Part shown: piece after piece, positions 39,001 through 63,000 of the stretch
How positions within the stretch are numbered: position 1 is the first letter of the stretch
Layout of the letters: each line of letters opens with the position of its first letter
Assembly (NCBI RefSeq): GCF_964204865.1
Contig: NC_135255.1
Location: 2,046,001 to 2,110,000 of the forward strand
Length of the DNA: 64,000 bases
Source of the DNA: Styela clava
Taxonomy: Eukaryota
Reading direction: 5' to 3'
Program-made: the position numbers

Positions 39001-42000
39001 GGAGTACCCGCGATATATATTCATATATCACTAGAGTGCAAATCACTATCGTTTTGCGGGATCATCTGGCGATCCGATTTTGACGTCGGTGAATAAACAA
39101 AATCGGTGAACGACTAGAGCCAAGCTTTCGTAACGACGCAAAGTACAATTAGGCATTGACGTTCAGGCGACGTTGTTCTGTGGAACGTTTCAAATTACGC
39201 AATCGCGCATTTTGTCGTTCACAGCTGGAGTTCCAATTGTATCAGTATATATCGTAACATCGGCCGCGGTTCAAATAACACTTGCTTTAAACTTATGCTT
39301 TAGGTTAATGACGTTTCGCACTTGCGAGGACAAGCGATGAGTGTTTTTCATATCGAACGCAGAGCTACTACGTTGCAACACTTTGGTTGTTCGTTTGGTT
39401 GCATTCAGTCCTAGAATCTCTACGATGGACTAGGCTGAAATTACCTATCAGTACTTGAAAGCAGCATGTAGTGGAAATTTATTTTGTAGGTTTTGATGAA
39501 GTCACTAAAAGACTAAACTCTGAATGGAAGAATTGGATAAAATTTCATCCGCGATTACGTTGCGCGATTGATTTTACTAAAAGGTCGAACCCATGAAGGA
39601 AGAGGTGGATGAAATTTTAACCAGTGTTAGGTTGTATTATTGATGTAATTATATTGGATGAATTGCCGAATAATACCCCGATGAAAAGTGGGATGGTTAA
39701 AGTCACTATAAGACTGAACTCGAAAAGAAAAAAGTGGATAAAATTTTCCCCGACGGCTGGTGGGATGGTTGATTTCGCTAAAACGCTGAACCCAAAAACA
39801 ATGAAGTGGATGAAATTTTGACCGAGGGAAGGAGGGGTGGTTGAAGTCACAAACAGCTGACCCTAAAAGGAAAAGTGAATGAAATTTCGCTCGGGGAAGG
39901 TGGAGTAGTTGAATTCACTAATTGGCTAAACCCCAAAACGAGGTAGTGAATGAAATTTCGAGCAACGGAAGGAGAGGAGGTTGACGTCACTGAAAGGCTG
40001 CGCCCCGAATAGAAGAGGTGGATGAAATTTCTCTCGGAAAAGGTGGGGGAGTTGAAGTCACTACAAAGATGACCACTCAAATAGGAATTGGATGAAATTT
40101 TTCTTGGTGGAATATGGGGTGGATGTAGTCACAGAAAGACTGAACTCAAAAAAAAAGACTTGGATGGAATTTGGTTGCCCCTTTTGCCCCCCTCTAGGCA
40201 CGCCACTGTTTGGAAACCAGTGGCTTTGCAAATTGCGCCAACCACCGATCCAAATTAGAATAGACCATACGTTTTCGATTTGATTCTCTTCATGTAATAT
40301 TTGTGTAATTGAATCTCACAACAACACATAAATACGATTGCACTTAAAAATATAAAAAACAAGCTCATGATAATTTTCCATTTTTTGATATAGACTGACA
40401 GTTTTACCATTTTACAGCACGATTTTTTTTACAGTTAATAATATTTTTATCATGTGTAAAATTCGAGAAAATTGTAGACTTTCATTACGAAGTTTACATA
40501 CGTAAATAAACAGTTTATACCTTGGTTTTGCACTACATCGATTGAAGTTGCTATTTGTTAAATAAAGGTTGAACCCATATTCAACAGTTATCCGTGCAAT
40601 AACTATAAGGGATGAACAACTCTCCTAAAATGTCCCACACCCCACTGCATTCAAGGTGAGACATCAAACTTCCATTCCTAACTTAACCAAGTAATTTGAA
40701 TATATAAAACAGCGTTTCCCAACATTTTTTGGTCGCGGACTATTTTCTCACCAGCGAAAACATTTGCGGACTCAAAGTGCGTTTATTGCAACCGTACTCT
40801 GCGTGAAGAAGCAATAAAACCAAACACAACAGAATTTAACAAATTTCAAAATCGGAAATTCACCGCAATTACGCGTTCGTTAGAAAAAGCCGACTTTTTG
40901 TGTATTATGGCCTTTTCTGTCGCACAATATTCAACCCATGACAACGGCAACAATTTAAAACAGGGGTCGACAAACTGCGGCCCGCGGGCCAACTGCAACT
41001 ATTTTTTTTGCGGCCCGCGAACGTCCCGCCTTTAAATGCATAATACAAAAATTGATTATAAATTCATCTTTGTCTCCACATGGATTTGTACGGTAACAAA
41101 TGCAGCTTTACTGCAGCGTCAGTTCTAATTTGTATGTCGTTAAAATGATGTTGGTTGTAATGTTAAAAGTTGTATTAAAAGTGATAAGTCATTACAGAAC
41201 GTATCACTACAATTATGAAATTCGACCCTAGGACGCCACTGCTTCGCGCGACAGTGCAAACGTGTAATGTGCACGTCACATATTGTGCATATTGCTGTGA
41301 ACAGATTTATATGAAATGTATTACACGCACAATAAATTTCGTACTCGTTTATCAAATTGTCATTTTGACTACGTGCTGCGGGGCATAACAAGGTTGTCAT
41401 TTGATGTCAACGCTTTGGCCGTGGCACAGACAAAACATCAAGTAAATAAAGACAATATTGTCACGCCAATAACCGAATTGCGTAAGTCATTTTTAGCAGT
41501 TTTGAGAAAAACGTAAAAAACTTCCTAATGATATTGTTATGCCGTAGTAGTAGGCCCATTGAGAGTCAATAATTTGCCATGGTTCAATTTTTTGATCGTA
41601 GCCGGATTTAAGTTAATTTGTATGACGCAGTTATGTGACGATTTTTTTTTTCATGCTTGTGGTATACAAGATATAATTTTTAAATATCCTGGCATGTCCT
41701 TATAAAAGTCAGAAAAATTAACGCGATTACTGGATCAGCTGTCGACCTCAGAATTAATCAAACGGAACGAACGTTGTCATAGTAACACGTCGCTGCGATT
41801 CCTCTTGTAAATGGTTTTTGCTTCCTAAAACCAGGTACAGCAAACCAATACCGGTACTGGTACATTTTTTGCTGTAAATACTGCAGTACTGTGTTTAAAA
41901 GCTTTTCATATGGCTGCTAAACTACCATTTAGCCAAATGTGATGAATAATCCAGCCAATGTTAGGCTACTTGTTATTGCATTTGTAGGATTCTGGCATTT

Positions 42001-60000: not shown

Positions 60001-63000
60001 TGAATTTTATTAAAGTAGATATACATGCTGACTTCATTACACCCTCAGTGATGGATCTGTTAGGGGTGCAGATTGGTGGGTTAACATCTGTTTCATCACC
60101 CTAGGTATTGGGAAAGCACTTTCCCTTGCACCACTCACTGATTATTCTGTGTGGATTTGCTAGACTCATCATTGACACAGGGTGGTTGTATTCTCAAACC
60201 CAACCTGGTAGATCAAAAGGATGTTGTTCATACGAATGTTGGATGTTCAAGCCATTCTTTAGTTTTAGCAGAGTAAATATATCACAAGAATTTGTCTAAA
60301 CTCAAACCAAAATGAACTGATTACTTGTTCCTGAACTTCAATTATCACAGAGACTTACCGTTGTCAATCTGTTTGATTTGAGTAAAAATTTCCAACAAAA
60401 TTCATCTACGGACTGGCTTACAAGGATCGCATCAGCAGCTCAACCAAAAGGTTCTCGAGCGACAACGGCAGCTACCAGAGCATCTCGACTTGCAACACCA
60501 AATACACCTGCACCTACAGCAAATATTTAGATGCTGTATCAATTGGAATATGGATTTTGCGGTACGGAGCTTTTCGAGATTTGTATATTCCATCAGTAGA
60601 CCATTCTAAATAATTATGAGATGCTTCACTTCAAACAAGGCTGGGAGCAAGCATCCAATGCTAGATATTAAATTTCATGCAAGTTTCTGGTGTCAATGTC
60701 TTTACCAGCTCTCCAGAATGTTCTTTCCACATAATAACCTTTTTGATATATTCACACAGGATTTTTTTTTGTCATATCAAGATTTCATTCCTGAATATAC
60801 ATTGCATTTCACAAAAACTTCTCAATACACATGACAATATAATTCCTACTGCCGGAATACAATTAAAAGCTACTAGTTCTGTAAAAACTACCTTAAGTCG
60901 TAAGTCTATAATGTCGAGCTTATCATGAAACAATGTATGCGACAATCCCACTCATATGTGGTGGTATATTTTTTTATATACTACATATTTTGTTTTATAG
61001 AATTTCATTCAGTGTTGCTTAGGCTTTGATCCAGTTTATTTTTTGTATTTTTCATTGTGTCATGCATGCCCGATCATGTTACCTTTTGAAAATAAAGTTA
61101 TGCAAAATATGCTGTAATATAGAGTTATTGCTTGTTCATAAGGTAAGTAGATATCGTCACTGAACTTTGTGACTTGGGTTTTTATTCAGGGCTGTTTAGT
61201 TTGCAATAGCCCCCCTTCCTATCTTGAAAAATTTCGGACTTTAACTTCAGGTTATTAGAAAAATTTGAACTCTAGAAAATCGAACTTTGATAATGATAAA
61301 CTTTCTAACAGACTAATAAACGCTAAACTGTCGTTGACGAGTTTGAAAATATACGACCCTGCTACATACAAATCCAAGTTTACATCTTTAAGCTGTTTTC
61401 CTTTATCTCACAACTCTCAAGAGTCCTATATTCTGTGACAATAACAAGATGCATTTATTTAAGAAACGTTTAAAAATCAATCAAAAATTTTGAAAATGAA
61501 AAACAACACAAACCAAGGCATTGAAAATATGCGATGTGTTTTATAGAAACATTATTCCAGTTCCAACTTATGGAAACACAATTATCAGAACTAATAATTC
61601 CACACAAAAGAACTTGAATGAACTGGTAACATTTTACCAATAGTAAAGATCAGATAAATGAATTTTTCATCACAATCCTCAAACTCCCGATTGGCAACGA
61701 TCAATTACGAACTCAATCCATATCTGGGGATAGTCATTACTAGGTTAGCTTAACTAACCTCACACTCGACACTTTATACTACATGACAAATAAGCTTCAT
61801 AGCAATTCAACTACAAATTAATCTTTGTATAAGAATTTTGTTAATCGAAACTTGGTGAGATTTTATGCGATTTTTCGGAACTTACGTAGTAAGTGATAAT
61901 GGCAGGGTGAATGCGGATAATGAGAATGCAGATTATCCAAACAAAAAGCAAATTTGACAGGTTAGACGTGACATGGGCAAACTACAGCCCGTTGGGTAAT
62001 TCAATCTGGCCTGCTTGATGCCGCCACAACGTTAACTATAACCAAATTTTGAAGTTTTAGCTAAAAAATACCTCTATTTGTTGAGATTGTGATTAAATTT
62101 AGTTTTGGCAAGAGGCCTATTGTTTTTGCTTTTGTAACATTGTGAATATTGTTCATAAAATGTAACTTTTTATGTCACGTTGACATGGACCGCAAGTCTA
62201 GGTGGGTCAAAAACTACCCACCACTGTTATAGACCCTGACTCAGGAATTCAACATTACGAGAATTACAAAGTATAAAATGATACAATATTATTCTATGCG
62301 TTAATTTCTGAATTACCCACATGAAAATTGATTAAAGATTAGACAGTTAATTATGAAAATCCAACAATAGGAGAAATAAACACAATAAAATCTGACAAGA
62401 AAAACAATTGCATCATGGCAATAAACAAGCAATATCCACCTTGATATATCAACAGTGCAGTTCAATAATACAGCAGGCAGCATCAAATCTTTATTTTTAA
62501 ATCCAATACTACTCTATATCAGAAAAAATTTAGAATATTTCGTTCATATTATTTTGCAGTAATGACAATAACGCATCAAAGCATTGTGCATATACTCAAC
62601 TTAGTCATCAATTATTCTAATGTACTTCAATTATTCGTCTGTTAAAAAAAAAGGCAGTGCTTATAAACACGATAATAAATTGAAAATATTCTGGAAAATA
62701 GATTGCATTAGCTTAAAATCATCATCGCATCGGGGGCTCTCCTTAAATAGGAGGCATTGATAAGAAATATTTAGATCAAACTATGTATCGAAATTGATAC
62801 AAAACAAACAATGATATGTGATCACCGATGAAAAAAAAAACTTCCGAACATACTCATGTAACCTTTCATGAAATACATAAAGTCAACTTATTTGTAGAAT
62901 ATGATATATTGTAATTCACCATATGGGTATCAACACATCCAGTTTAAAATCTGACAAAAAAATGAAACAAAAAATATAAACACCCATCACTTCATATTGA

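What the first reader, a model, noticed from the sequence alone, without database searches (positions are those of the whole stretch)
41773..60530. Candidate RFX-driven ciliary gene pair/operon: X-box, CFAP276, then an unnamed 935-aa gene
Seen: a near-perfect X-box, an intronless CFAP276 CDS, and ~950 bp of very AT-rich spacer before a co-oriented 23-exon gene. By eye the spacer has no X-box, GC-rich promoter or canonical AATAAA (only ATTAAA at ~44686). Both ATGs have pyrimidine-rich AG acceptors just upstream (~43409/43435 and ~44840/44866). Known: RFX controls ciliary genes, and tunicates have SL-trans-spliced operons. Inference: both genes may come from one RFX promoter, which would implicate the unnamed protein in motile cilia or sperm flagella.
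Basis: partly seen in the sequence, partly recalled or inferred. Interest (0 to 1): 0.65.

Follow-up and report, generated by a model that had tools for sequence, protein, structure and literature searches.

The report
Possible ciliary operon in sea squirt
A sea-squirt cilia gene (CFAP276) with an RFX-type control site lies just upstream of a conserved but unnamed gene, in a layout that fits a shared transcript but does not prove one.

Summary
The window matches Styela clava. There is one X-box, GTTGTCATAGTAAC, at 41773-41786. A single-exon CFAP276 CDS lies at 43444-43944 (Pfam PF12494, and PDB axoneme chains). A 952-bp gap follows (22.7% GC, no AATAAA). The co-oriented 23-exon gene is the public S. 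clava LOC120331142.

That gene belongs to a conserved family with no name, no Pfam domain and no solved relative. The model shows an N-terminal helical region and a split C2-like beta-sandwich.

No transcript data could be reached, so the operon reading is untested. These points favour it:
- The upstream CDS is a single exon, as in 60% of the first genes of Ciona operons.
- The gap has no AATAAA.
- The AG at 44839-44840 scores like a real acceptor.
- The gap has no CpG-rich block, whereas the stretch just before the X-box does.

These points count against it:
- A Ciona-type operon would need a 3'UTR of about 0.9 kb.
- Three of the four proposed acceptors are weak.
- The X-box lies 1,658 bp from the ATG.
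- The pair appears not to be syntenic in Ciona or Clavelina.

My estimates: about 0.7 that the X-box is functional, about 0.55-0.6 for co-transcription, about 0.42 for both, and about 0.25 for a ciliary role of the unnamed protein. If real, it is a new member of a known kind.

The parts
41773..41786 (.). X-box (RFX-type site) GTTGTCATAGTAAC, near-palindromic
   Evidence: It is the only match to GTHNYYATRRNAAC in the window and has 3 mismatches to GTTGCCATGGCAAC. Chance gives a site in the 2 kb before the ATG in 85 of 5000 shuffles. It sits at the 3' edge of a CpG-replete block: 41000-41786 has o/e 1.48.
41787..43443 (+). 1,657-bp leader between the X-box and the CFAP276 ATG; a putative 5' intron or outron (inferred)
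   Evidence: Without the SINE its CpG o/e is 0.50. There is no strong donor right after the X-box; the best donors are at 42034 (6.0) and 42984 (7.9). The best acceptor near the ATG has its first base at 43361 (5.0). It contains 3 AATAAA.
42329..42668 (+). SINE-like repeat inserted in the leader
   Evidence: It is 96% identical over 339 bp to 30560-30898 on the other strand. Partial copies lie at 33106-33267, 53084-53213 and 16695-16842.
43444..43944 (+). CFAP276 CDS, one exon, 166 aa plus TAA
   Evidence: Pfam PF12494 at E=7.1e-33. PDB chains named CFAP276: 8snb_3R at 2.8e-56, also 9cpc, 7ung, 7rro and 8i7o. Identity is 72% to Clavelina and to Ciona intestinalis CFAP276-like proteins.
43945..44896 (+). 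AT-rich gap: either the CFAP276 3'UTR running up to the next gene, or a 3'UTR plus an intergenic promoter
   Evidence: 952 bp at GC 22.7%. It has 0 AATAAA (2.33 expected, P=0.093), ATTAAA at 44686, and TATAAA at 43964, 44198 and 44854. CpG o/e is 0.41, 5 CpG against 12.2 expected.
44839..44840 (+). Best candidate acceptor AG (trans- or cis-splice), 56 nt before the ATG of the downstream gene
   Evidence: The acceptor matrix scores it 7.7. Sites this good occur at 0.77 per kb on this strand. A 3-codon upstream ORF starts at 44872 (read).
44897..60530 (+). 23-exon gene, equal to Styela clava LOC120331142 (unnamed family)
   Evidence: Exons: 44897-45050, 45482-45617, 46214-46317, 47193-47314, 47646-47719, 48446-48507, 49963-50067, 50541-50650, 50949-51102, 51641-51796, 52294-52368, 52833-53008, 53832-53912, 54618-54729, 55291-55410, 56325-56453, 57001-57113, 57575-57721, exon 19 (58228-58309 or 58447-58526), 58749-58849, 59137-59255, 59606-59801, 60351-60530. 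These come from tblastn of P0121 and GT-AG phase arithmetic.
57575..57721 (+). Exon 18, where the public 'LOW QUALITY' model shifts frame
   Evidence: P0121 skips base 57671. The window's unshifted frame (…KLQQLLSDMEHMQHVQ…) aligns with the Phallusia, Ciona and Clavelina orthologues; the shifted one does not.
58228..58309 (+). Alternative exon 19 that keeps the frame open without any frameshift
   Evidence: It is open in frame, starts in phase 0, is 82 nt long and is flanked by AG and GT. The total becomes 935 aa. Homology cannot choose between it and 58447-58526.

Best explanation
This is a same-strand gene pair in a Styela clava-like ascidian genome.

Shown:
- The first gene encodes CFAP276, an inner protein of axonemal doublet microtubules.
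- The second gene encodes a conserved, unnamed protein. Its model has an N-terminal helical region, a split C2-like beta-sandwich and a conserved C-terminal motif.
- A consensus X-box lies 1.66 kb upstream of the first ATG.

Inferred, most likely mechanism:
1. An RFX factor binds the X-box, and transcription starts near 41.8 kb.
2. The 1.6-kb leader, which carries a SINE, is removed as an outron or a 5' intron.
3. Some transcripts end as CFAP276 mRNA, with a 3'UTR that fills most of the 952-bp gap.
4. Other transcripts run on, and the AG at 44839-44840 receives the spliced leader to give the downstream mRNA.

This would be a Ciona-type operon with a single-exon first gene. A variant without a spliced leader is also possible: a non-coding first exon near the X-box that is cis-spliced to the same AG.
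For: X-box:
- It matches the consensus and is the only such site in 64 kb.
- Only 85 of 5000 shuffles put one in the 2 kb before the ATG.
- CFAP276 is a motile-cilium structural protein.
- Ciona has four RFX genes (PMC2873420, passage).
- A table in the S. clava transcription-factor survey lists RFX_DNA_binding genes; I read its S. clava count as 2 without seeing the column headers (PMC8122590, table passage).

Fit to published Ciona operon traits:
- About a fifth of genes lie in operons.
- 60% (790 of 1310) of first genes are single-exon, against 15% of non-operon genes.
- Annotation pipelines tend to fuse operon genes (all three: PMC2760879, passages).
- 16 of 18 operons lack AATAAA within 40 nt of the upstream poly(A) site (PMC1488885, passage).

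What the window shows:
- The upstream CDS is a single exon.
- The gap has no AATAAA at all.
- The AG at 44840 scores 7.7, within the range of this gene's own acceptors.
- S. clava has larger gene distances and fewer intronless genes than Ciona (PMC7540406, passages). That makes a 952-bp same-strand gap behind a single-exon CDS unusual.
- No S. clava CFAP276 protein appears among 198 hits, the best being 88% identical, although the neighbouring gene's record is present. This would follow if a pipeline had merged the two genes.
- CpG o/e falls from 1.48 (41000-41786) to 0.50 in the leader, 0.41 in the gap and 0.42-0.59 in gene 2, with no CpG-replete block in the gap.
Against: - No transcript, spliced-leader or TSS data could be reached, so every step after 'the motif is there' is inference.
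- In Ciona operons the cistrons abut: median distance 1 bp, inferred cut-offs 68-84 bp, and 1128 of 1172 predicted operons at 1 bp or less (PMC7986045, section 26). Here that needs a 3'UTR of about 0.9 kb on a 501-nt CDS.
- The X-box is 1,658 bp from the ATG, against 100-250 bp in C. elegans ciliary genes (PMC2873420, passage).
- The lack of AATAAA is not significant (P=0.093), and the gene's own introns are not depleted, with 17 seen against 15.3 expected.
- The CFAP276 CDS keeps its CpGs (o/e 0.96) while gene 2 exons do not (0.42). The two may therefore belong to different methylation classes.
- The orthologues lie on contigs of different length: in Ciona intestinalis 9,879,317 against 10,188,569, in Clavelina 20,453,238 against 14,208,942, and in Pinctada 114,981,146 against 91,661,170.
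- Among the 15 listed of 28 papers holding 'Styela' and 'operon', none reports nuclear operons in Styela, judging by title or abstract.
Confidence: 0.42

Rival explanations
1. These are two independent genes. The X-box promoter serves CFAP276 only. CFAP276 mRNA ends inside the gap at a variant signal (TATAAA at 43964 or 44198, AGTAAA at 44412 or 44424, or ATTAAA at 44686). The downstream gene starts from its own AT-rich, TATA-type promoter in the gap. One possible layout is the TATAAA at 44198, a short leader exon ending at the donor 44270, and cis-splicing to the AG at 44840. Alternatively it is trans-spliced from its own short outron.
For: - Several variant poly(A) hexamers and TATA-like sequences lie in the gap.
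- A donor at 44270 (score 6.0) could pair with the acceptor at 44840 (score 7.6 in that run).
- The 952-bp gap is far beyond the Ciona operon cut-offs of 68-84 bp unless the 3'UTR is very long.
- The pair appears not to be syntenic in Ciona, Clavelina or Pinctada.
- The CpG o/e of the two coding sequences differs, 0.96 against 0.42.
Against: - The gap has no X-box and no CpG-replete block.
- Five ATGs lie in the last 200 nt before the start codon (read). An unspliced 5'UTR would therefore have to be under 25 nt.
- A single-exon upstream CDS is four times commoner at the head of Ciona operons than among non-operon genes.
Confidence: 0.28
2. The pair is co-transcribed as an ascidian operon, but the X-box is a chance match or a distal element. 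The operon promoter lies closer to CFAP276, around 42.7-43.4 kb.
For: - At least one consensus site arises somewhere in the window in 122 of 300 shuffles.
- The site is 1,658 bp from the ATG and has 3 mismatches to the ideal palindrome.
- No strong donor follows the site directly.
- A SINE has landed between it and the gene.
Against: - A consensus site within 2 kb upstream of a structural cilium gene is expected by chance in 1.7% of shuffles.
- The site sits exactly at the edge of the CpG-replete block.
Confidence: 0.18
3. The adjacency carries no regulatory meaning. The genes are independent, the X-box is a chance match, and the close spacing is an accident of a lineage-specific rearrangement or of a retrocopy landing there.
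For: - The orthologues are on different contigs in three other species.
- The intronless CDS would suit a retrocopy.
- An A-rich run at 44049-44068 follows the stop codon by about 100 nt (read).
Against: This needs both a 1.7% coincidence and an unusually short same-strand gap in a genome noted for large gene distances.
Confidence: 0.12

Closest known systems
Ciona intestinalis SL-resolved operons (for example KHOP.805 with Rpl21 as second gene, and the myosin light/heavy chain operon)
   Same: The genes are same-strand neighbours. The first gene has a single coding exon, as in 60% of Ciona operons. There is no canonical AATAAA before the junction. A usable AG lies shortly before the downstream ATG.
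   Different: Ciona cistrons abut with no intercistronic DNA, at a median of 1 bp. Here the coding sequences are 952 bp apart, and neither the poly(A) site nor spliced-leader addition has been observed. No report of operons in Styela turned up in the library searches.
DAF-19/RFX X-box ciliary promoters (C. elegans, Drosophila, mammals)
   Same: A 14-bp site fits GTHNYY AT RRNAAC upstream of a gene for a cilium structural protein.
   Different: The site is 1,658 bp from the coding start, against 100-250 bp in C. elegans. Binding, and conservation in other tunicates, were not testable here.
CFAP276 (C1orf194), an inner protein of axonemal doublet microtubules
   Same: The match runs full length to chains named CFAP276 in five sets of solved structures, and to Pfam PF12494.
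   Different: The CDS has no intron here, and no S. clava record for it was found in the protein collection.
C2-domain proteins with coiled coils
   Same: The confident beta-strands of the model (324-359, 463-510, 569-602) superpose on C2 domains. The best match is 9zk4_B at E=1.2e-4 with TM 0.62 by target.
   Different: No Pfam C2 match in P0121 or in any of 43 relatives. The sandwich is interrupted by long low-confidence insertions. Sequence identity is 8%. Calcium-binding residues were not examined.

Membership tests
CFAP276 / DUF3695 (PF12494) | Pfam model matched above the curated cut-off | tested here: met
   112.9 bits against a cut-off of 27, E=7.1e-33, residues 30-124.
CFAP276 / DUF3695 (PF12494) | Full-length similarity to chains built as CFAP276 in solved structures | tested here: met
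   8snb_3R at 2.8e-56 over residues 3-165; also 9cpc, 7ung, 7rro and 8i7o.
CFAP276 / DUF3695 (PF12494) | Location inside doublet microtubules in this species | not testable with these tools
   Needs proteomics or imaging of S. clava cilia or sperm.
RFX X-box promoter element | Match to the 14-bp consensus GTHNYY AT RRNAAC | tested here: met
   41773-41786 is the only site in the window. The consensus is as quoted in 10.1101/2020.08.21.260547 (one passage).
RFX X-box promoter element | Position close to the coding start (100-250 bp in C. elegans) | tested here: not met
   It is 1,658 bp upstream of the ATG (PMC2873420 passage). It could still be close to a TSS if the leader is spliced out, which is untested.
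RFX X-box promoter element | RFX binding, and dependence of expression on the site | not testable with these tools
   Needs ChIP, ATAC or a reporter assay.
RFX X-box promoter element | Conservation of the site upstream of CFAP276 in related species | not testable with these tools
Ciona-type SL-resolved operon | Same strand, with the upstream poly(A) site less than 100 bp from the downstream trans-splice acceptor | tested here: inconclusive
   Same strand: yes. The stop-to-ATG gap is 952 bp. The criterion concerns transcript ends, which I could not see.
Ciona-type SL-resolved operon | Downstream gene carries the spliced leader | not testable with these tools
   Only a plausible AG at 44840, score 7.7.
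Ciona-type SL-resolved operon | First gene often single-exon (60% against 15%) | tested here: met
   The CDS is uninterrupted. Whether the 5'UTR is spliced is unknown. Figures are from PMC2760879 (passage).
Ciona-type SL-resolved operon | No AATAAA within 40 nt of the upstream 3' end (16 of 18 operons) | tested here: met
   0 AATAAA anywhere in 43945-44896. This is not significant on its own, P=0.093.
Ciona-type SL-resolved operon | Unresolved dicistronic precursor RNA | not testable with these tools
   Needs long-read RNA or RT-PCR.
C2 domain | Sequence-profile match | tested here: not met
   0 Pfam families for P0121, and no C2 family among the 43 relatives.
C2 domain | Eight-stranded beta-sandwich fold | tested here: met
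   All 11 best Foldseek matches are C2 domains, with E from 1.2e-4 to 4.4e-3 and TM by target 0.48-0.63. The strands have pLDDT 86-96, but the whole model has pTM 0.38.

The most novel reading that the evidence does not exclude
This is a Styela-lineage operon driven by RFX. It would have formed when an intronless CFAP276 copy landed in the discarded leader of a gene that was already X-box regulated. That would make the unnamed helical plus split-C2-like family (351 relatives, no Pfam, no solved structure) a new conserved component of motile cilia or sperm flagella. It would also give a chordate example of a functionally coherent ciliary operon.
Probability: 0.2. Interest if true: 0.6.

Novelty: new member of a known kind. 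Interest (0 to 1): 0.4.

Why it matters
Ascidian operons are usually seen as pairs without shared function. A pair in which a cilium structural gene and its neighbour share an RFX promoter would be a useful exception.

It would also give a first functional lead for a widely conserved animal protein family that has no name, no domain and no structure.

Two practical points hold whatever the answer:
- The public S. clava model of the downstream gene carries a frameshift that the orthologues do not support.
- CFAP276 seems to be missing from the public protein set for this species.

Both would be expected if annotation pipelines mishandle operon-like loci.

Tried and rejected
Searches that found nothing useful:
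- Pfam, exon by exon. 20 ORF pieces covering 20 exons and the other 3 exons plus the public model's exon 19 gave 0 hits above a curated cut-off.
- Pfam on P0121, on its 43 aligned relatives and on 20 distant hits gave no shared family. One hit carried LRR repeats and one a CPSF6 domain, probably fused models.
- PDB by sequence gave 0 hits. By profile it gave only coiled-coil noise at E of 0.024 or worse.
- ESM Atlas gave no usable hit by features, and structure rows all had TM under 0.5.
- There are no tRNA or Rfam matches in the window.
- 0 of 84 ORFs of at least 58 aa in 23.0-41.8 kb and 60.5-64 kb hit Pfam, so no divergent gene next to the X-box was found.

Tests that did not discriminate:
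- AATAAA depletion as a sign of read-through was not significant, and the introns are not depleted.
- Homology could not choose between the two candidate exons 19.
- I looked for a spliced-leader trace in N-terminally longer CFAP276 relatives. The extra residues of P0003 are C-terminal and nothing was learnt.

Could not be made or seen:
- The listing of cluster members, which would have named the deeper relatives, was switched off.
The genome collection holds only bacteria and archaea, so synteny and X-box conservation in other tunicates stayed unchecked.
The Ciona operon lists and TSS tables (supplements of PMC7986045, PMC4691747 and PMC2760879) could say whether the Ciona orthologues are operon members.

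
Full report
Origin of the window. The CFAP276 ORF finds its closest named relatives in ascidians: Clavelina lepadiformis 72%, Ciona intestinalis 72% and C. savignyi 69%. One exon of the downstream gene finds a 934-aa record, 'LOW QUALITY PROTEIN: uncharacterized protein LOC120331142 [Styela clava]' (P0121). That record maps back onto the window in 24 collinear pieces at 89-100% identity per piece. Styela clava is reported to be 1.72% heterozygous (PMC7540406, passages). 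The window is therefore S. clava or something very close to it. It is not human, and it has no N.

Checking the observation. GTTGTCATAGTAAC at 41773-41786 is the only match in 64 kb to the X-box consensus GTHNYY AT RRNAAC. The consensus is as quoted in one passage of bioRxiv 10.1101/2020.08.21.260547. The site differs at 3 positions from the ideal palindrome. A site somewhere in the window is unremarkable, arising in 122 of 300 shuffles. A site within 2 kb upstream of the CFAP276 start is not, arising in 85 of 5000.

The ORF at 43444-43944 is an uninterrupted 166-aa CFAP276. It matches Pfam PF12494 at E=7.1e-33. It also matches chains named CFAP276 in five sets of solved structures, the best being 8snb_3R at E=2.8e-56.

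The gap at 43945-44896 is 952 bp at 22.7% GC, with no AATAAA and one ATTAAA at 44686. It holds no X-box-like 14-mer with 3 or fewer mismatches. Scored with a matrix built from this gene's own 22 acceptors, only the one ending at 44840 looks like a real acceptor (7.7). The others score 1.2, 0.5 and -0.2. Sites as good as 7.5 occur at 0.77 per kb.

The downstream gene. Its 23 exons run from 44897 to 60530, all with GT-AG introns. They were searched one at a time, and whole-protein searches used the public record P0121.

The public model skips base 57671 in exon 18. The window's unshifted frame aligns with the Phallusia, Ciona and Clavelina orthologues and the shifted frame does not. Homology cannot decide between the two versions of exon 19.

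What the downstream protein is. Orthologues at 52-53% identity exist in Phallusia, Ciona (LOC100180644) and Clavelina. More distant ones exist in a sea cucumber, a brachiopod, a mussel and a pearl oyster. None has a real name. A full HMMER scan found 351 relatives at E of 0.001 or better, sharing an N-terminal block (about residues 40-230) and a C-terminal block (about 760-900).

The family has no Pfam domain and no solved relative by sequence or profile. Neither LOC number appears in any paper of the library. An AlphaFold model built on 43 relatives has mean pLDDT 62 and pTM 0.38. It is confident for helices 19-195 and for a beta-sandwich made of strands 324-359, 463-510 and 569-602. Foldseek places that sandwich among C2 domains: the 11 best matches are all C2 domains, at E from 1.2e-4 to 4.4e-3 and TM by target of 0.48-0.63. 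This is a fold-level lead, not membership of a family.

The operon question. No transcript data were within reach, so I compared the locus with what is published for Ciona.
- Ciona cistrons abut with no intercistronic DNA (PMC1488885, passages).
- The median distance is 1 bp, with inferred cut-offs of 68-84 bp, and 1128 of 1172 predicted operons are at 1 bp or less (PMC7986045, section 26 read in full).
- About one gene in five lies in an operon.
- 790 of 1310 first genes (60%) are single-exon, against 15% of non-operon genes.
- Standard annotation pipelines tend to fuse operon genes (last three points: PMC2760879, passages).
- 16 of 18 operons lack AATAAA within 40 nt of the upstream 3' end.

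The locus fits the single-exon trait, the lack of AATAAA and the presence of a plausible acceptor. It fits the abutting rule only if the CFAP276 3'UTR is about 0.9 kb long. The lack of AATAAA is weak evidence: 2.33 are expected, P=0.093, and the introns of the gene show no depletion. S. clava is described as having larger gene distances and fewer intronless genes than Ciona (PMC7540406, passages). That makes this tight pair more notable.

No S. clava CFAP276 record is in the protein collection, although its neighbour's record is. A fused gene model would explain that, but so would other things.

CpG pattern. Observed-over-expected CpG is 1.48 in 41000-41786, which ends at the X-box. It is 0.50 in the leader without its SINE, 0.96 in the CFAP276 CDS, 0.41 in the gap, 0.42 in gene 2 exons and 0.59 in its introns. 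Invertebrate methylation is aimed at gene bodies (PMC3827831 and PMC4776710, abstract openings in the search listing only). On that basis the pattern suits a transcription unit that begins near 41.8 kb with no unmethylated promoter island in the gap. The intact CpG content of the CFAP276 CDS cuts the other way, unless selection on the protein preserved it.

Synteny. The collection reports the length of the contig on which each protein was seen. CFAP276 and the downstream gene's orthologue sit on contigs of different length in three species:
- Ciona intestinalis: 9,879,317 against 10,188,569.
- Clavelina: 20,453,238 against 14,208,942.
- Pinctada: 114,981,146 against 91,661,170.
The evidence is indirect. 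Different assemblies could give different lengths, and the Clavelina CFAP276 was seen on two contigs. Still, it suggests the adjacency is specific to the Styela lineage.

Verdict. I put the X-box being a working RFX site at about 0.7 and co-transcription of the two genes at about 0.55-0.6. A role of the unnamed protein in motile cilia is about 0.25, because even true Ciona operon partners are not tightly co-expressed and the pairing is not conserved.

If real, this is a new member of a known kind (an ascidian operon, an RFX target), not a new kind of system. Library searches gave no report of operons in Styela:
- 'Styela clava' with 'trans-splicing': 3 papers, 2 listed.
- The six-term search.
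- 'Styela' with 'operon': 28 papers, 15 listed.
I judged these by titles and abstracts only.

What stayed unchecked:
- Names and taxa of the deeper relatives, because the listing of cluster members was off.
- Supplementary operon and TSS tables of the Ciona papers.
- All transcript-level evidence.

Noticed in passing
42329-42668 (+), 30560-30898 (-), partial copies at 33106-33267, 53084-53213 and 16695-16842: A repeat of about 340 bp occurs in at least five copies, two of them 96% identical. Its 5' part looks tRNA-like to me; the box A/B resemblance is recalled, not tested, and ARAGORN and Rfam call no tRNA. The S. clava genome paper speaks of an 'absence of SINEs' (PMC7540406 passage), so this element may be unclassified.
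   Followed up: partly
57575-57721 and 58228-58309: The public S. clava protein model is marked LOW QUALITY because it drops base 57671. Orthologues support the unshifted frame, and an alternative exon 19 gives an intact 935-aa reading.
   Followed up: yes
43444-43944: No S. clava CFAP276 record appears among the 198 relatives found, the best being 88% identical from an unnamed source. The gene may be unannotated in the public protein sets.
   Followed up: partly
41000-42000: CpG observed/expected steps sharply from 1.86 (41601-41800) to 0.15 (41801-42000), right at the X-box.
   Followed up: partly
51185-51198: A second X-box-like 14-mer, GTTGTCATCGCACC, lies in intron 9 of the downstream gene. 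It has 3 mismatches to the palindrome and fails the degenerate consensus.
   Followed up: no
17864-22860 (-): An exostosin-type glycosyltransferase gene lies on the other strand. The ORF at 22426-22857 hits Pfam Exostosin_GT47 at E=1.3e-10. Its body is CpG-poor (o/e 0.26-0.59 at 17-22 kb) and the 23-24 kb region is CpG-replete.
   Followed up: partly
31705-32068, 34046-34803, 39688-40063: Minisatellite arrays lie upstream of the locus. They include a 16-bp unit repeated 24.6 times and two opposed 29-bp arrays. They create long spurious ORFs at 34025-34629.
   Followed up: no
4689-6167 (-): A 492-aa open frame rich in Ser, Asp and Glu has no Pfam match. It is probably a large exon of an unidentified gene.
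   Followed up: no
44049-44068: An A-rich run lies about 100 nt after the CFAP276 stop. It could be a relic poly(A) tail of a retrocopy, or just AT-rich sequence (read).
   Followed up: no
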